From NCBI GenBank assembly GCA_947487895.1, contig CANKYF010000007.1, forward strand, positions 12,196-76,195: a DNA stretch of 64,000 nucleotides, in the 5' to 3' direction. The stretch comes from an uncultured Flavobacteriaceae bacterium. Lineage in GTDB: Bacteria > Bacteroidota > Bacteroidia > Flavobacteriales > Flavobacteriaceae. The notes beneath the pieces are model-generated. The model searched no databases, was not told the DNA's origin, and saw only the letters and a list, made by a program, of their open reading frames with translations. The position numbers and the translations under genes were made by a program. Positions 29,183 to 36,011 of the stretch are shown here, piece by piece; the stretch's first letter is position 1; every line of letters begins with the position of its first letter.

Positions 29183-29191
29183 CACAGATAA

Positions 29192-29280
29192 ACTTTAGGG
29201 GTGTTAATTTGTATAATAACAAGATTAACTGAGATTTACCCTTTGAACCTGATTAAGTTAGCACTTACGTAGGGAAAAGT
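29192..29280 (+). ncRNA. TPP riboswitch aptamer
   Basis: P1 acttt/aaagt, ggggtg, ctgaga, acccttt-gaacctgat, cgtaggga; upstream of thiS-thiC. Confidence 0.95.
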
Positions 29281-29368
29281 AAATTTATTAGAAATAATAA
29301 TAGGTTTTCAAAAAACCATACTTCTTCAACAAGGTATTCCTAAAGTTATCATTTAAGAGACTAATTTA

Positions 29369-29572
29369 ATGATAACAATTAAAGTTAATAATAAAGCGAA
29401 ACAGATTTCTCAAGCCTTTTCAGTTGAGCAATTGTTACATGATTTAAAACAACCCAATCAAGGTATTGCGGTGGCGATAAACCAATCTATAATACCTAAA
29501 AATAATTGGTCTGAAGAAATTTTAAATGAAGGTGATGATGTGCTCATTATTAAAGCTACACAAGGAGGCTAA
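29369..29572 (+). CDS. thiS: Sulfur carrier protein ThiS
   Basis: GIAVAINQ, C-terminal ATQGG. Confidence 0.95.
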   Translation: MITIKVNNKAKQISQAFSVEQLLHDLKQPNQGIAVAINQSIIPKNNWSEEILNEGDDVLIIKATQGG

Positions 29573-31605: not shown

Positions 31606-32214
31606 ATGATTGTTCTAATAGCACCAGAAAACGATGTTCAAAATGAACTTGAAATACTTAATCAGTTGTTTCAAGAAGGGTTACAGTACTATCATTTAAG
31701 AAAACCAAATAAGAATTACGAAGAATATTGTGATTATCTAAATCTAATCGATTCAAAATATCATAATCTAATTGTAACGCACTATTTTCATGAGTTAATT
31801 GATGAATATTCATTAAAAGGAATTCATTTTCAAGAACAAAAACGAAGAGATTGTTTAGATACCCCTTCCGATTATTTTGTTAAGCTGAATAACATGTATG
31901 GCAAAACTATCAGTAGTTCTTTTCATGAACCAGAAGAATTAGAAAATTGTGATTTTGAATTTGATTATCATTTATTAAGTCCTGTATTTTCATCTATTTC
32001 AAAACAAGGATATCAAGGTCGTGGATTTGATGTTAACCATATAAATAAAAGAATAGTGGGTATGGGAGGTGTAACAACTGAAAATTTAAGTGAATTTACA
32101 AAGTTAGGTTTTAAAGGTGTTGGTGTTTTAGGAGGTGTTTGGAATAGTAAAAACCCTATTTCTGATTTTAAGTTAATGAGGAATTATTTTACTCAAACAA
32201 GAAGTTATATATAA
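31606..32214 (+). CDS. ThiE/TenI-like thiamine-phosphate-synthase-family protein
   Basis: HLRKP, GIHF, SSSFH, LLSPVFSSISKQGY, GMGGV. Confidence 0.85.
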   Translation: MIVLIAPENDVQNELEILNQLFQEGLQYYHLRKPNKNYEEYCDYLNLIDSKYHNLIVTHYFHELIDEYSLKGIHFQEQKRRDCLDTPSDYFVKLNNMYGKTISSSFHEPEELENCDFEFDYHLLSPVFSSISKQGYQGRGFDVNHINKRIVGMGGVTTENLSEFTKLGFKGVGVLGGVWNSKNPISDFKLMRNYFTQTRSYI

Positions 32215-32276: not shown

Positions 32277-33047
32277 ATGAAAGAACATAAATACATACTA
32301 ACCATAGCAGGTCATGACCCGTCAGGAGGAGCTGGCTTAACTTCGGATGTTAAAACATTTGAAGCGCATGGTTTCTATGGGCTTTCGGTATGTACCGCTA
32401 TTACTGTTCAAAATGATATCGATTTTAAAAGTTGTTTTTGGACTGAAGTCAATGTAATCATTTCTCAAATGGAGACCTTATTTGAACGTTTTGAAATTTC
32501 AGTAGTTAAAATTGGTATTGTAGAAAGTTGGAGTGTGTTATTGAAAATTTTAAATAAGCTACACGCTCTAAATTCAGACATTAAAATTATTGTAGATCCT
32601 ATAATAAAGGCAACAGCAGGTTTCGATTTTCATTCCACTGAAAACCAAGAATTATTTGACGTTATTTGGGATAAATGTTATCTCATTACACCTAATTATG
32701 AGGAGATTGAATTGCTGTATCCAGAAAAAGATATAGAGGAAACTATTGAGCATATTTCAGAAAAAACTAATATCTATTTAAAAGGCGGACATAGAACCGA
32801 TAAAAAAGGTTGGGATGTATTATATCATAATAGAATTGTTCAAACTAACATAGAACCAAGAGCAAGACAAGTTTTTGATAAACATGGCAGTGGTTGTGTT
32901 TTATCTTCTGCGCTTGCAAGTAACATTGCGTTAGAAATAGAATTAGAAGATGCTGCGAGAGAAGCAAAATATTATACCGAGCAATTTTTAAATTCAAATG
33001 AAACCTTGTTAGGTGTTCATCAATCAAATTTAAAGGAAAGCGTCTAA
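32277..33047 (+). CDS. thiD: Hydroxymethylpyrimidine/phosphomethylpyrimidine kinase
   Basis: LTIAGHDPSGGAG, VDPI, ITPN, LKGGH, KHGSGCVLSS. Confidence 0.93.
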   Translation: MKEHKYILTIAGHDPSGGAGLTSDVKTFEAHGFYGLSVCTAITVQNDIDFKSCFWTEVNVIISQMETLFERFEISVVKIGIVESWSVLLKILNKLHALNSDIKIIVDPIIKATAGFDFHSTENQELFDVIWDKCYLITPNYEEIELLYPEKDIEETIEHISEKTNIYLKGGHRTDKKGWDVLYHNRIVQTNIEPRARQVFDKHGSGCVLSSALASNIALEIELEDAAREAKYYTEQFLNSNETLLGVHQSNLKESV

Positions 33048-33697
33048 TGGCTGTTATAAACAAATTACATTATATATCACAAGGAGCCAATGCAAAAGAG
33101 CATTTGGAAAATATTCAGAAAGCATGTCAATATGGAGCTGAATTGGTACAATTGCGGTTAAAAAATCTTTCAGAAAAAAAGATGCTAAAAGCAGCTGAGG
33201 AAGCCAGAGACATTACAAGTCATTACCAAACCAGATTGATTATAAACGACCATTATAAAATTGCTAAAAAAGTGAATGTAGATGGCATTCATTTGGGTAA
33301 AACAGATACCTGTCCAACAATTGCTAGAAAAGAATTAAAAAGTTGGCAAATTATTGGAGGAACAGCAAACACTCTAGATGATTGTAATGCATTAATAGAT
33401 AAAAATGTGAACTACATAGGTTTAGGACCCTATAGATTTACAACCACTAAAGATAATTTAAGTCCTGTTTTAGGAAAAAATGGATACTTAACTATTATTG
33501 AAGCTTTGAAATCTGAAATGCCAATTATAGCCATAGGAGGTATCACTACTACAGATGTTACGGAGTTATTAACTACAGGTATTCATGGTATAGCTATATC
33601 TGGAGAGATTACCAAAGATTTCAATAAAATCAAAGAGTTTCATCAATTATTAAATGCTGGAAGTGCTATGGAGCAACGTTACAGCTTTAAAAATTAA
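33047..33697 (+). CDS. thiE: Thiamine-phosphate synthase
   Basis: [36 protein letters not shown]. Confidence 0.92.
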
Positions 33698-33701
33698 TAC
33701 A

Positions 33702-34472
33702 ATGAACGATATATTAAAAATAGCTGATAAAGAATTTAATTCAAGATTATTCACAGGTACTGGGAAATTCAGCTCTAATGACTTGATGGCTAAAGCTATA
33801 TTAGCTTCAGAAAGCGAGCTGGTAACCGTAGCATTAAAACGTGTTGATGTTGAAGATGAGCAAGATAAGATGCTGCAAAGTATCAATCAGCCGCATGTCA
33901 ATTTATTGCCGAATACTTCTGGAGTTAGAGATGCTAAAGAAGCCATTTTTGCATCACAATTAGCAAGAGAAGCTTTAGAGACTAACTGGATTAAGTTAGA
34001 AATTCATCCAGATCCAAAATATTTGTTACCAGACCCTATAGAAACCTTAAAAGCTGCCGAAGAATTAGTGAAATTAGGTTTTGTAGTAATGCCATATATT
34101 CATGCAGACCCTGTATTGTGTAAAAGACTAGAAGAAGTAGGAACACAATGCGTGATGCCTTTAGGAGCGCCAATAGGGACTAATAAAGGTTTGAAAACTT
34201 TGGATTTTCTAGAAATTATCATTGAGCAGAGTAATGTACCAGTCATTGTAGATGCCGGTATTGGAGCTCCTTCTCATGCAGCTTACGCTATGGAATTAGG
34301 AGCCGATGCTGTTTTGGTAAATACAGCCATAGCAGTGTCTCAAAATCCTGTTGAAATGGCTATAGCTTTTAAAATGTCTGTTGAAGCAGGTAGAATGGCA
34401 TACAACGCAAAATTAGCAAGTATAAAACAACACGCAGAGGCAAGTAGCCCGTTAACTAGTTTTTTAAACTAG
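33702..34472 (+). CDS. thiG: Thiazole synthase (start moved to ATG 33702)
   Basis: [50 protein letters not shown]. Confidence 0.97.
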
Positions 34473-34504
34473 CTCTTAGTGATTAGCTTTTAGCCTTTAG
34501 GATT
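34470..34504 (+). repeat. Left heptamer array, 5 x TAGNNNT
   Basis: tagctct tagtgat tagcttt tagcctt taggatt, then ATG at 34505. Confidence 0.85.
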
Positions 34505-34855
34505 ATGAGAGACTATAACAAATACGAAATCTGGAAAAAATCACATAAACTTACTTTACAAGTTTATACGATAACTAAATCTTTTCCTAAAGAAGAAATG
34601 TATGGAATAGTTTCTCAGTTAAGAAGAGCGTCACTTTCAATTCCAACCAATATTGTAGAAGGTTCTGGTAGAAACTCTCAAAAAGAGTTTGCTTATTTTA
34701 TAAATATTGCCTCTGGCTCTGCAGCTGAAACTGAATATCTAATTCGTTTTTCTTTTGATTTGGAGTATATTCCAGAGGATAAATTTAAAGAACTTAATGA
34801 TGAAATTATTAGTATTAGAAAAATGTTAAACGCATTTCATCAAAAACTAAAATAA
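34505..34855 (+). CDS. Four-helix-bundle protein (IVS-encoded/Avd-like family)
   Basis: IWKKSHKL...FPKEEMYGIVSQLRRASLSIPTNIVEGSGR...F..IASGSAAETEY. Confidence 0.92.
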   Translation: MRDYNKYEIWKKSHKLTLQVYTITKSFPKEEMYGIVSQLRRASLSIPTNIVEGSGRNSQKEFAYFINIASGSAAETEYLIRFSFDLEYIPEDKFKELNDEIISIRKMLNAFHQKLK

Positions 34856-34856
34856 A

Positions 34857-36011
34857 ATGGAAGACGTAAAACCAATAGCCAAAAACCAAAAGCCAAAGGC
34901 TAAAAAAAGCTTTCAGGATATATTTGATACTTACAATTGGGATGAAACCTTAGCAAACATAAATGCTAAAACATCTCAAGATGTGGAGTACGCTTTAAAT
35001 AAAACCAAAAGAGATTTAGAAGATTTTAAGGCATTGTTATCTCCTGCGGCCCAACCTTATTTAGAGCAAATGGCCATTCAAAGTAAAGCCATCACAAAAA
35101 AGCGTTTTGGGAATACCATACAAATGTATATTCCAATGTATTTGTCTAATGAATGCCAAAATATATGTACTTACTGCGGATTTAGTATGACTAATAAGAT
35201 TCCACGTAGAACCCTATCTGATATTGAAATCATCAAAGAAGTTGAGTTCATAAAAGAGAAAGGATACGATCATATTTTATTGGTAACAGGTGAAGCAAAT
35301 AAAACAGTCGGTGTTCCATATATCAAACATGCTATTGAACTCATAAATGATAAGTTCTCTAATATTACTATTGAAGTTCAACCATTAAATCAAGAAGAAT
35401 ACGAAGCACTTATTGAAGCTGGTTTATATGCCGTTTTGGTATACCAAGAAACCTATCATAGAGCAGAGTATAAAAAACATCATCCTAAAGGAAAAAAGTC
35501 AAATTTCAATTACCGTTTAGATACCCCAGATAGATTAGGTAAAGCAGGAATTCATAAAATAGGTTTAGGAGCATTATTTGGTTTAGAAGATTGGAGAGCC
35601 GATAGTTTTTTTACAGCACTACATTTAAAATATTTACAAAAAACCTATTGGAAAACTAAATACTCTATTTCTTTTCCTAGACTACGTCCTCACAGTGGTG
35701 GGTTAGAGCCTAAGGTAGAAATGACCGATAAAGATTTGGTACAAACTATTTGTGCGTTTAGGTTGCTAGATGAAGACGTAGAATTATCATTATCAACCCG
35801 AGAAAGTGAAACGTTTAGAAATAATATTGTGCATTTAGGCATTACTTCCATAAGTGCAGAATCTAAGACTAATCCGGGAGGATATACAGTAGATCCGCAG
35901 ACATTAGAACAATTTGAAATTTCTGATGAAAGGCCAACTGAAGATATTGCAGAAATGCTTCAAAAACAAGGATTAGAACCTGTTTGGAAAGATTGGGAAG
36001 CTTTTAAATAA
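34857..36011 (+). CDS. thiH: 2-iminoacetate synthase (radical SAM)
   Basis: YLSNECQNICTYCGF, YQETY, GALFGL, ISFPRLRP, SAESKTNPGGY. Confidence 0.96.
   Translation: MEDVKPIAKNQKPKAKKSFQDIFDTYNWDETLANINAKTSQDVEYALNKTKRDLEDFKALLSPAAQPYLEQMAIQSKAITKKRFGNTIQMYIPMYLSNECQNICTYCGFSMTNKIPRRTLSDIEIIKEVEFIKEKGYDHILLVTGEANKTVGVPYIKHAIELINDKFSNITIEVQPLNQEEYEALIEAGLYAVLVYQETYHRAEYKKHHPKGKKSNFNYRLDTPDRLGKAGIHKIGLGALFGLEDWRADSFFTALHLKYLQKTYWKTKYSISFPRLRPHSGGLEPKVEMTDKDLVQTICAFRLLDEDVELSLSTRESETFRNNIVHLGITSISAESKTNPGGYTVDPQTLEQFEISDERPTEDIAEMLQKQGLEPVWKDWEAFK
34868..34906 (-). repeat. Right heptamer array, inverted relative to the left array, inside the thiH 5' end
   Basis: Minus strand reads tagcctt tggcttt tggtttt tggctat tggtttt; 34895-34905 is an exact 11-bp inverted repeat of 34488-34498. 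Confidence 0.85.

What the first reader, a model, noticed from the sequence alone, without database searches (positions are those of the whole stretch)
34470..34906. Four-helix-bundle gene between inverted heptamer arrays: candidate non-transposase mobile or RNA-level cassette
Between thiG and thiH, a 116-aa four-helix-bundle gene is bracketed by five TAGNNNT heptamers on the left and five inverted T(A/G)GNNNT heptamers on the right. The arrays include an exact 11-bp inverted repeat (34488-34498 / 34895-34905). The first left heptamer supplies the thiG stop, the 7-nt period puts TAG in all three frames, and the last heptamer abuts the ATG. This family is known from 23S rRNA intervening sequences, which are excised from a stem, and is structurally related to Avd, the RNA-binding partner of DGR reverse transcriptases. 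It is unrelated to thiamine synthesis, and no transposase or integrase is nearby. Inference: the arrays are cis-signals for mobility or for looping the gene out of the mRNA, with the protein binding them.
Basis: partly seen in the sequence, partly recalled or inferred. Interest (0 to 1): 0.75.

Follow-up and report, generated by a model that had tools for sequence, protein, structure and literature searches.

The report
Avd-like gene cassette with heptamer-repeat arms
A small, conserved four-helix-bundle gene flanked by mirror-image runs of 7-base repeats has been slotted into a thiamine operon, and the same gene-plus-repeat module turns up across many bacteria, which links an uncharacterised protein family to the unexplained abundance of 7-base repeats between bacterial genes.

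Summary
Five TAGNNNT units (34470-34504) and five inverted TRGNNNT units (34868-34902) bracket a 116-aa PF05635/TIGR02436 gene, and no such array occurs elsewhere in the 64 kb. One correction: the right array lies inside thiH. thiH starts at ATG 34857 and reads the array as an 18-aa N-terminal extension.

The module is general. In 108 family members from Flavobacteriaceae thi operons and unrelated metagenomes (GC 0.32-0.71), flanks are strongly enriched for 7-nt (some 8-nt) tandem arrays. These were inverted in 30 of 36 scorable cases. Repeat unit and period track the protein subfamily.

The thiG|thiH junction is empty in the closest relative and about 45 of 80 other loci. It is filled in at least six separate branches, replaced wholesale between sister Aquimarina, and reduced to gene-less hairpins in some Tenacibaculum. 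The protein is under purifying selection (dN/dS about 0.065).

It has the architecture of the ORF-bearing 23S rRNA intervening sequence of Coxiella, but sits in an mRNA operon. Evolutionary mobility is supported. RNA loop-out at this locus is not, because thiH's only start codon lies in the loop. My best inference, untested, is that the pentameric protein binds its cognate arrays.

The parts
29187..29292 (+). TPP riboswitch heading the thi operon (thiS 29369-29572, thiC, thiE-like, thiD, thiE, thiG, cassette, thiH, thiF-like). It is context and the probable only source of the cassette's transcription.
   Evidence: Rfam RF00059, 72 bits, E 4.6e-13. ORFs.
33654..34472 (+). thiG. Its C-terminus (SFLN) is intact, and its stop codon TAG (34470-34472) is the first heptamer of the left array.
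   Evidence: PF05690, E 7e-109. Junction compared with empty sites.
34470..34504 (+). Left array of five degenerate heptamers TAGNNNT. It places TAG in all three frames and abuts the cassette gene's ATG.
   Evidence: 0 expected in shuffles.
34488..34498 (.). Left half of the exact 11-bp inverted repeat TTTTAGCCTTT. Its partner is 34895-34905.
   Evidence: I13. It is the core of the pairing 34474-34501 / 34893-34918 in the predicted fold.
34505..34855 (+). Gene for a 116-aa four-helix-bundle protein (S23p / 23S_rRNA_IVP / Avd-like). It has no promoter signal of its own and lies in the operon's orientation.
   Evidence: PF05635 at 137.9 bits and TIGR02436 at 132.6 bits. AlphaFold2 pLDDT 97.5. 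TM 0.96 to 2GSC, 0.8 to 2RLD, 0.79 to bAvd 4DWL. dN/dS about 0.065 against L001.
34857..34910 (+). New 5' end of thiH. The ATG lies 2 nt after the cassette gene's stop (TAAAATG) and is followed by an 18-codon extension that reads through the right array. Native ThiH in relatives starts M-x(1-3)-F.
   Evidence: (profile starts at residue 19).
34868..34905 (-). Right array of five inverted heptamers T(A/G)GNNNT (34868-34902), plus the end of the 11-bp inverted repeat (to 34905). On the plus strand it reads AAAACCA ATAGCCA AAAACCA AAAGCCA AAGGCTA and is open in the thiH frame.
34911..36011 (+). Conserved ThiH core (2-iminoacetate synthase), downstream of the cassette.
   Evidence: TIGR02351, 556.8 bits, residues 19-381.

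Best explanation
WHAT IT IS. The feature is an S23p-type cassette: a promoterless gene for an Avd-like four-helix-bundle protein, bracketed by inverted arrays of about five degenerate heptamers. It has the same architecture as the ORF-bearing intervening sequence of 23S rRNA in Coxiella. Here it sits at the thiG|thiH junction of a TPP-riboswitch-controlled thi operon.

WHAT IS SHOWN.
- The cassette arrived at the DNA level in a junction that is ancestrally only 15-35 nt long.
- It is stitched into operon translation. The left array supplies thiG's stop. The cassette gene starts immediately after that array. Its stop overlaps a new thiH ATG. The right array is read as an N-terminal extension of ThiH.
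- Gene plus arrays behave as one heritable unit. They are gained, replaced or stripped to gene-less hairpins between related species.
- Unit sequence and period (7 or 8 nt) co-vary with the protein subfamily.
- The protein is under purifying selection.

WHAT IS INFERRED.
- The arrays are cognate binding sites for the protein. Two crystallised homologues have five chains per entry, and one of them is described as a homopentameric toroid. The protein may bind roughly one heptamer per subunit, on the transcript or on single-stranded DNA.
- Binding, in competition with arm-arm pairing, would set processing and translational coupling at the junction.
- The same arrays would be the substrates through which cassettes spread and are exchanged, using host recombination or replication functions rather than a transposase.
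For: Architecture.

Family and fold. 2GSC and 2RLD each have five chains. XCC0516 is described as a homopentameric toroid in PMC4990558.

Generality:
- All 42 family genes in 83 thiH loci lie at thi-operon junctions on the operon strand.
- Lag-7 arrays are the dominant tandem class. 20 of 58 lie in the 0.9% of bases that flank these genes.
- At least one array passes the threshold in 50% of the thi-operon copies and 72% of the metagenomic copies, against 12% of 840 control genes. Mann-Whitney p is 7e-30 upstream and 1e-24 downstream.
- Arms are inverted in 30 of 36 cassettes, direct in 4, tied in 2. Array lengths peak at 4-5 units, 4 being the fewest my detection could call.
- Inverted similarity is median 24 against 15 for controls.

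Co-variation of unit and period with protein clusters. The same GCYAAAA unit flanks a 52%-identical homologue on a Pseudanabaena plasmid.

Gain, loss and replacement:
- Empty site in the sister taxon and in most of the family.
- L067 versus L083: flanks 93-100% identical, cassette 38-68% identical, with a different protein and a different unit.
- Gene-less hairpins in L059, L066 and L073. In L073 a same-type gene sits one junction downstream.

In-frame read-through of the right array occurs in all 14 filled loci.

Purifying selection: dN/dS 0.087/1.34, against 0.080/1.72 for thiH.

Published parallels:
- The Coxiella IVS has an S23p ORF, a 28-bp terminal inverted-repeat stem cut by RNase III, and three tandem GACAGAT heptamers directly upstream of the ATG whose number varies between strains (PMC4990558).
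- XCC0516, the protein of structure 2GSC, abuts a GGGAATC array in Xanthomonas, where 186 such arrays and 70 inverted pairs exist (PMC4692102).
- The Avd pentamer binds an RNA stem-loop, and a duplex forms between sequences flanking TR (bioRxiv 10.1101/2023.10.23.563531).
Against: - No binding, processing or expression data exist for this organism. Only DNA metagenomes hold the sequence.
- Co-variation of unit with protein subfamily is confounded by common descent.
- Array lengths have a long tail of up to 16 units. Together with the 4-unit detection floor, this weakens the argument for one pentamer per five units.
- A minority of cassettes have direct rather than inverted arrays (L002, L129, L185).
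- Identical proteins were never seen in two contexts, and no target-site duplication is visible. Movement is therefore rare, and may be ordinary homologous exchange through the conserved flanking genes.
- Gene-less arrays persist without a cognate gene nearby (L059, L066).
- About 28% of the metagenomic copies and half of the thi-operon copies showed no array at my threshold.
Confidence: 0.6

Rival explanations
1. RNA-level excision. The two arrays pair in the polycistronic transcript, and RNase III cuts the stem and releases the cassette RNA, as with rRNA intervening sequences. That excision would be the element's main mode of action here.
For: - RNase III excision at the inverted-repeat stem, at the first heptamer, is proven for the Coxiella IVS (PMC4990558).
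- The predicted fold of the window cassette pairs 34474-34501 with 34893-34918.
- Many other cassettes have strong arm duplexes, with a metagenomic mean of -39.9 kcal/mol against -20.3 for controls.
- A metatranscriptome contig joins the flanks of a groES|groEL cassette.
Against: - thiH's only start codon and first 18 codons lie in or beyond the loop side, so a cut would inactivate thiH. The same holds in all 14 filled loci.
- The sense duplex here is only -15.1 kcal/mol (z -2.1).
- Arm mismatches show no G-U enrichment (90 vs 97 vs 276 transversions).
- Bacterial IVS excision is not followed by ligation.
- The joint seen in RNA keeps three left heptamers, and other runs show different joints. 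This fits strain heterogeneity better than splicing.
Confidence: 0.15
2. A conventional non-autonomous transposon or MITE. The arrays would be terminal inverted repeats recognised by a transposase encoded elsewhere, and the four-helix-bundle gene would be passenger cargo.
For: - Inverted terminal arrays, gene-less derivatives and patchy distribution.
- 186 same-unit arrays occur in Xanthomonas.
Against: - There is no target-site duplication at the junction.
- There is no transposase within +/-16 kb.
- Each paralogue has its own unit type rather than a shared terminal repeat.
- Identical copies were not found in different contexts.
- The passenger is the one constant of the element across phyla, and it is under purifying selection.
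Confidence: 0.1
3. DNA-strand structure. The arms act as a hairpin in single-stranded DNA, or in an antisense transcript, on the minus strand. This would resemble integron attC sites or IS200/IS605 ends.
For: - The window's antisense arm duplex is far stronger than the sense one (-26.5 kcal/mol, z -4.3, against -15.1).
- In the thi-operon set the antisense duplex is the more stable in 29 of 40 cases (p 5e-4).
Against: - The bias vanishes in the metagenomic set (34:34).
- It is explained by coding constraint. CTA followed by A or G would place stops in the translated right array, so CTA becomes CCA (inference).
- There is no integrase or Y1 transposase nearby.
Confidence: 0.07
4. A resident accessory gene of thiamine biosynthesis or its regulation, inherited vertically and lost many times. 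The repeats would be incidental slippage products.
For: - All 42 family genes found in 1.03 Mb around thiH lie inside thi operons.
- The gene is under purifying selection.
- It is present in all nine Aquimarina loci.
Against: - It is absent from most thi operons, including the sister taxon's.
- Precise loss that regenerates M-x-x-F is implausible.
- The same family sits at groES|groEL, cas6|cas4, beside bccP in Xanthomonas, and in 23S rRNA.
- Arrays are about 39-fold enriched at these genes and are inverted.
Confidence: 0.05

Closest known systems
ORF-bearing 23S rRNA intervening sequences (Coxiella burnetii, Leptospira; S23p ORF)
   Same: Same protein family. In both, the ORF is bracketed by terminal inverted repeats, tandem heptamers sit directly upstream of the ATG with variable copy number, the ORF lies in sense with the host transcript, distribution is sporadic, and no transposase is present (PMC4990558).
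   Different: The host site is an mRNA operon junction, not helix 25 or 45 of 23S rRNA. The right arm is translated as part of the downstream enzyme. Excision would be harmful here. The protein is under purifying selection, whereas the Coxiella ORF is decaying and probably untranslated.
Avd of diversity-generating retroelements (bAvd, PDB 4DWL and 8UB7)
   Same: Same fold (TM 0.79). Avd forms a pentameric barrel that binds an RNA stem-loop, and a duplex forms between sequences flanking the template repeat.
   Different: There is no reverse transcriptase in 18-52 kb, and template and variable repeats were not looked for. The Avd equivalog model scores 34.6 against a cut-off of 80. Sequence identity to bAvd is 12%.
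Intergenic tandem heptamer repeats of bacteria (cyanobacterial STRR, Xanthomonas GGGAATC, Beggiatoaceae TAACTGA)
   Same: Arrays of two to six or more 7-nt units at gene junctions, often just upstream of start codons. Some give stops in all frames, some occur as inverted pairs, and copy number varies between relatives (PMC4679880, PMC4692102).
   Different: Those papers name no protein partner and call the function unknown (see also bioRxiv 10.1101/309039). Here the arrays are tied to a specific gene family. XCC0516 appears in the Xanthomonas repeat table only as a 'conserved' neighbour.
Ring-shaped RNA-binding regulators that read periodic triplets (HutP: UAG every 7 nt; TRAP: GAG/UAG every 5 nt). 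Recalled from memory as a functional analogy only.
   Same: An oligomeric ring, with one short conserved core (here TAG or AGC) per repeat and non-conserved spacers.
   Different: The folds are unrelated and no binding has been shown for this family. The unit differs between subfamilies. The arrays occur as inverted pairs around the protein's own gene.
Integron gene cassettes and MITEs
   Same: Promoterless small cassettes oriented with host transcription, with imperfect inverted repeats and gene-less derivatives.
   Different: There is no attC or intI, no shared terminal sequence, no target-site duplication, and insertions are single at operon junctions.

Membership tests
PF05635 / TIGR02436 four-helix-bundle (S23p, 23S_rRNA_IVP) family | Profile match above the curated cut-off | tested here: met
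   PF05635 scores 137.9 bits (cut-off 33.8). TIGR02436 scores 132.6 bits (cut-off 24).
PF05635 / TIGR02436 four-helix-bundle (S23p, 23S_rRNA_IVP) family | Four-helix-bundle fold like XCC0516 and BT_0352 | tested here: met
   AlphaFold2 pLDDT 97.5, four helices. TM 0.96 to 2GSC and 0.80-0.83 to 2RLD.
PF05635 / TIGR02436 four-helix-bundle (S23p, 23S_rRNA_IVP) family | Homopentameric ring | not testable with these tools
   Only homologues can be cited: five chains in 2GSC and 2RLD, and a homopentamer reported in PMC4990558. No multimer model was possible.
23S rRNA intervening sequence (IVS) element | Inserted in a 23S rRNA helix (25, 45 or 9) | tested here: not met
   It lies between thiG and thiH. 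The only Rfam hit in 28.5-37.5 kb is the TPP riboswitch.
23S rRNA intervening sequence (IVS) element | Complementary termini able to form a stem around the ORF | tested here: met
   An 11-bp exact inverted repeat. The predicted fold pairs 34474-34501 with 34893-34918. The arm duplex is -15.1 kcal/mol (z -2.1) on the sense strand and -26.5 (z -4.3) on the antisense strand. This is weaker than the 28-bp Coxiella stem.
23S rRNA intervening sequence (IVS) element | Tandem heptamers directly upstream of the S23p start (as in Coxiella) | tested here: met
   Five heptamers end at the base before the ATG. Compared with PMC4990558.
23S rRNA intervening sequence (IVS) element | Excision from the transcript by RNase III | not testable with these tools
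   No RNA runs exist for this organism. Excision would remove thiH's start codon.
Diversity-generating retroelement (Avd accessory gene) | Adjacent reverse transcriptase with template and variable repeats | tested here: not met
   All genes from 18 to 52 kb are housekeeping, with no reverse transcriptase. I did not search for template or variable repeats. NF033474 Avd scores 34.6 against a cut-off of 80.
Insertion sequence, transposon or MITE | Transposase (in cis or shared terminal repeats with an autonomous copy), target-site duplication, multiple near-identical copies | tested here: not met
   No transposase. No duplication at the junction when compared with empty sites. No second copy in the window. 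Identical proteins occur only in one context.
Integron gene cassette | attC site downstream of the ORF, with an intI/attI platform | tested here: not met
   Repeats lie on both sides of the ORF. No integrase is present in 18-52 kb. It is a single cassette inside a biosynthetic operon.
Intergenic tandem heptamer repeats (LSSR / STRR class) | At least 3 head-to-tail 7-nt units at a gene junction | tested here: met
   Five units on each side. Lag 7 dominates over lags 5-10 in 1.03 Mb of related loci.

The most novel reading that the evidence does not exclude
S23p / Avd-like pentamers are the missing trans-acting partners of the tandem heptamer repeats described in the literature I read as the commonest tandem repeat class between prokaryotic genes. 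Each protein subfamily would recognise its own 7- or 8-nt unit, about one unit per subunit. Gene plus inverted arrays would form a self-perpetuating cassette family that needs no transposase. With more than 21,000 clusters at 50% identity, this family would colonise operon junctions and rRNA helices, and the ORF-bearing rRNA intervening sequences would be only its first-noticed members.
Probability: 0.35. Interest if true: 0.9.

Novelty: new variant of a known kind. Interest (0 to 1): 0.72.

Why it matters
Tandem heptamers are described in the papers I read as over-represented, and in one survey the most abundant, among tandem repeats in prokaryotic intergenic DNA, with "no clear clue" to their function. 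PF05635 is a very large family, with 21,429 clusters at 50% identity at E<=0.001. It has two crystal structures and no known role outside DGR Avd.

A physical and evolutionary link between the two gives each a testable hypothesis. One could purify one protein, offer it its own array, and watch an operon junction in a knockout.

The link also reframes ORF-bearing rRNA intervening sequences as one niche of a wider cassette family. It shows how an inserted gene can be made harmless inside an essential operon: stops in all frames on one side, an open reading frame on the other, and a relocated start codon. If each subfamily reads its own 7-8-nt unit, the family would offer a set of natural repeat-recognition modules.

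Tried and rejected
- RNA evidence for the window. Only four runs hold the sequence: three marine-metagenome DNA runs and one of unrecorded type. None is RNA.
- Metatranscriptomes on a groES|groEL cassette (L091). They gave one cassette-skipping joint. Other runs gave different joints and alternative junction sequences, so I read this as strain heterogeneity and not splicing. It remains inconclusive.
- G-U versus A-C mismatch asymmetry as a test for RNA pairing. No bias either way was found. The antisense bias of the thi-operon set is probably a side effect of keeping the translated right array free of stops.
- Recent transposition. Two homologues, each seen on many contigs, were always at groES|groEL.
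- Phage carriage. No match in 50,697 phage records. The plasmid hits are mostly cyanobacterial.
- "Stops in all three frames on the left, none on the right" as a general rule. It holds only weakly outside this locus (22 of 59 left arrays against 14 of 60 right arrays).
- A universal core motif. AGC/GCT is the commonest in-phase triplet, in about 30 of 68 metagenomic cassettes, but many other units exist.
- A paralogue inside the window. None was found.
- Literature searches for a described link between this family and heptamer arrays. They found only the single Coxiella observation.
- The 1993 Leptospira IVS paper. It is not held in the library.
Full report
OBSERVATION

Five heptamers, TAGCTCT TAGTGAT TAGCTTT TAGCCTT TAGGATT, occupy 34470-34504. 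The first TAG is the stop of thiG (ORF 33654-34472), and the last unit abuts the ATG at 34505. On the minus strand, TAGCCTT TGGCTTT TGGTTTT TGGCTAT TGGTTTT occupies 34868-34902. An exact 11-bp inverted repeat links 34488-34498 with 34895-34905.

The pattern (TRGNNNT)x5 has these two matches and no others in the 64 kb, with none in 100 dinucleotide shuffles. The enclosed 116-aa ORF is a clear PF05635 / TIGR02436 member.

One correction matters for the interpretation. The right array is not intergenic. The thiH ORF starts at ATG 34857, 2 nt after the cassette gene's stop (TAAAATG). There is no other in-frame start before the conserved core, and the ThiH profile begins at residue 19. The right array is therefore translated as MEDVKPIAKNQKPKAKKS.

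CONTEXT

The gene sits in a thi operon: TPP riboswitch (29187-29292), thiS, thiC, thiE-like, thiD, thiE, thiG, cassette, thiH, thiF-like. Every gene from 18 to 52 kb is housekeeping. There is no transposase, integrase or reverse transcriptase.

THE PROTEIN

AlphaFold2 gives a confident four-helix bundle (pLDDT 97.5). It superposes on XCC0516 (2GSC, TM 0.96), BT_0352 (2RLD, about 0.8) and the DGR protein bAvd (4DWL and 8UB7, about 0.79). Both crystallised homologues have five chains, and XCC0516 is reported as a homopentameric toroid (PMC4990558).

The family is very large: 21,429 clusters at 50% identity at E<=0.001 and 7,249 at E<=1e-10. Against its 85%-identical orthologue, the gene has dN/dS 0.087/1.34, as constrained as thiH (0.080/1.72). 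The protein therefore matters to its carrier.

IS THE GENE FIXED AT THIS SITE? NO.

A thiH-based scan gave 80 Flavobacteriaceae loci. The thiG|thiH junction falls into four classes.

(a) Empty, 15-35 nt, with a native ThiH start M-x(1-3)-F. This class has about 45 loci and includes the closest relative, Hyunsoonleella pacifica (ThiH 94% identical).

(b) Filled with a family gene and inverted arrays. There are 14 distinct loci.

(c) Gene-less hairpins made of the same arrays, with thiH's ATG in the loop (Tenacibaculum L059, L066, L073), plus right-arm remnants.

(d) Hairpins of a different repeat unit, or other repeat elements.

On a ThiH tree the filled state occurs in at least six separate places: the window but not its sister, L001 inside Wenyingzhuangia, L002, L036, Tenacibaculum sp. 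M341, and all nine Aquimarina loci. Empty sites cannot easily be derived by deletion, because the native start and first codons would have to be regenerated. The filled state is therefore the derived one.

The clearest case is the sister pair L067 and L083. Their thiG and thiH flanks are 93-100% identical, but the segment between them drops to 38-68% identity. That segment carries proteins only 52% identical and different units (GCCAAC versus CCCTCAA). This is a whole-cassette replacement.

In Tenacibaculum sp. A30 (L073), a gene 74% identical to that of M341 sits one junction downstream (thiH|thiF). Its thiG|thiH site keeps a gene-less hairpin of the same unit type.

IS THE REPEAT-GENE ASSOCIATION GENERAL? 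YES.

- In the 83 thiH loci (1.03 Mb), all 42 family ORFs lie at thi-operon junctions on the operon strand.
- Tandem arrays of period 7 are the dominant class: 58, against 14 or fewer for periods 5, 6, 8, 9 and 10. Of these, 20 lie in the 0.9% of bases flanking family genes. Most of the rest are gene-less arrays of the same unit types at other junctions.
- A profile scan of metagenomes gave 80 unrelated loci, with GC 0.32-0.71 and 40-64% identity. Most again show arrays on one or both sides.
- Over 108 cassettes, at least one array passes a strict threshold in 50% of the thi-operon copies and 72% of the metagenomic copies. The figure for 840 control genes is 12%. Mann-Whitney p is 7e-30 upstream and 1e-24 downstream. 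Period 7 accounts for 72 arrays and period 8 for 17.
- Where both sides are scorable, the right unit is the reverse complement of the left in 30 of 36 cases, direct in 4 and tied in 2. Array length peaks at 4-5 units with a long tail, 4 being the fewest my detection could call.
- Inverted similarity of flanks has median 24, against 15 for controls.
- Neighbouring genes are mostly co-oriented: 43:7 upstream and 30:13 downstream.
- Other niches include groES|groEL, cas6|cas4 on a Pseudanabaena plasmid, with about 15 and 10 units of the same GCYAAAA type as here, and Calothrix and Nostoc plasmids.

UNIT TYPE TRACKS THE PROTEIN

Protein clusters at 60% identity or more each have a characteristic unit and period.
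- A 23-member metagenomic cluster uses AGCNNTC.
- The thiD|thiE cluster uses the 8-mer AAGGAGTT.
- The window's cluster uses CTTTTGG / AGCTTTT.
- An Aquimarina cluster uses ATCGGGT / AGGGTTG.
- Two further clusters use other 8-mers.

Unit type is kept across genera whose synonymous sites are saturated, and even across phyla. Copy number, by contrast, changes between close relatives (L024 against L035). This pattern suggests constraint on the unit sequence, but common descent is a confounder.

RNA OR DNA?

Arm duplexes are much stronger than for control genes. However, arm mismatches show no wobble signature: 90 sense G-U, 97 antisense G-U and 276 transversions.

In the window, the sense duplex is weak (-15.1 kcal/mol, z -2.1) and the antisense duplex strong (-26.5, z -4.3). 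The thi-operon set shares this bias (29:11), but the metagenomic set does not (34:34). I attribute the bias to coding constraint. A faithful complement CTA followed by A or G would place TAA or TAG in one of the three frames visited by a 7-nt period, so CTA is replaced by CCA in the translated arm. This is inference.

In all 14 filled loci, thiH starts -10 to +20 nt from the cassette gene's stop and reads through the right array. Excision at the stem would therefore decapitate thiH. No RNA data exist for this organism. Metatranscriptome contigs over a groES|groEL cassette were inconclusive.

WHAT IS ALREADY KNOWN

- The Coxiella 23S IVS is described as a selfish element. It has an S23p ORF, a 28-bp terminal inverted-repeat stem cut by RNase III, and three tandem heptamers (GACAGAT) directly upstream of the ATG whose number varies between strains (PMC4990558).
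- Intergenic heptamer arrays are documented as over-represented and unexplained: TAACTGA in Beggiatoaceae, cyanobacteria and Bacteroidetes (PMC4679880); GGGAATC in Xanthomonas, with 186 arrays and 70 inverted pairs (PMC4692102); and a 7,006-genome survey that reports "no clear clue" to their function (bioRxiv 10.1101/309039).
- In the Xanthomonas supplement, array 15 overlaps the start of XCC0516, the very protein of structure 2GSC. It is listed there only as "conserved".
- In DGRs, the Avd pentamer binds an RNA stem-loop, and a duplex forms between the sequences flanking the template.
- My searches found no paper that generalises the link between this protein family and heptamer arrays. That is absence in the held library, not proof of novelty.

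VERDICT

The feature is real. It is an IVS-type S23p cassette living in an mRNA operon, integrated so that both neighbouring genes stay translatable. It is one instance of a widespread gene-plus-inverted-array module.

Evolutionary mobility of the module is supported. The mechanism is unknown, and homologous exchange through the conserved flanking genes cannot be excluded. RNA loop-out at this locus is not supported.

My preferred mechanism, at about 0.6 overall, is that the pentameric protein binds its cognate arrays, and that arm pairing, binding and translation compete at the junction. This is inference and awaits a binding assay.

I class the finding as a new variant of a known kind, with high interest because it connects two unexplained and very common features of bacterial genomes.

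Noticed in passing
L004-L083 (thiH loci), e.g. L003 1097-1462, L018 2686-2980 and 3876-4245, L067 1764-2127: Thi operons of Flavobacteriaceae are a hotspot for this family. All 42 family genes in 1.03 Mb lie at thi-operon junctions (thiC|thiE, thiE|thiD, thiD|thiE, thiG|thiH, thiH|thiF), with up to three per operon, each with its own repeat unit. None lies in the outer flanks. I have no explanation for why this riboswitch-controlled operon is favoured.
   Followed up: partly
L010, L016, L048, L051, L053 thiG|thiH junctions; also loose ends in run X26 on L091: A different dispersed repeat (...cgtcattacgagg...gattgcttcg.ttcgcaatgac...) occupies the same junction in several species. It looks like a REP- or MITE-like element of Bacteroidota competing for the same sites.
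   Followed up: no
L185 1201-1560 (Pseudanabaena galeata plasmid pPg_01): A 52%-identical homologue sits between cas6 and cas4 of a CRISPR-Cas operon. It is flanked by about 15 AAAGCTA and about 10 AAAGCCA units in direct, not inverted, orientation. The unit type is the same as in the window.
   Followed up: partly
L079 7172-7389 (Tenacibaculum larymnensis): The family gene after thiH gives two tblastn pieces in different frames, so it is probably a frameshifted pseudogene. It is an example of cassette decay.
   Followed up: no
P0163, P0175, P0227: Some cluster representatives are 380-420 aa with the four-helix-bundle domain at the N-terminus. They may be read-through fusions with the downstream gene across an open right array, or gene-calling artefacts.
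   Followed up: no
L040 and L062 thiG|thiH junction (Tenacibaculum finnmarkense): The 'empty' junction contains a 15-nt tandem duplication of the thiG end (TTTTTAAATTAAATC / TTTTTAAACTAAATA). This is a possible scar or slippage product at the hotspot.
   Followed up: no
window 31606-32214 and 33047-33697: The operon has two thiE-type (TMP-TENI) genes. The listed thiG ORF (33654) overlaps the end of thiE by 44 nt, so the true thiG start is probably further downstream.
   Followed up: no
L001 4522-4594; L003 4592-4628: Gene-less heptamer hairpins or arrays also sit at the thiH|thiF junction of loci that carry the thiG|thiH cassette. In L003 they have the same GCCAAAA unit.
   Followed up: partly
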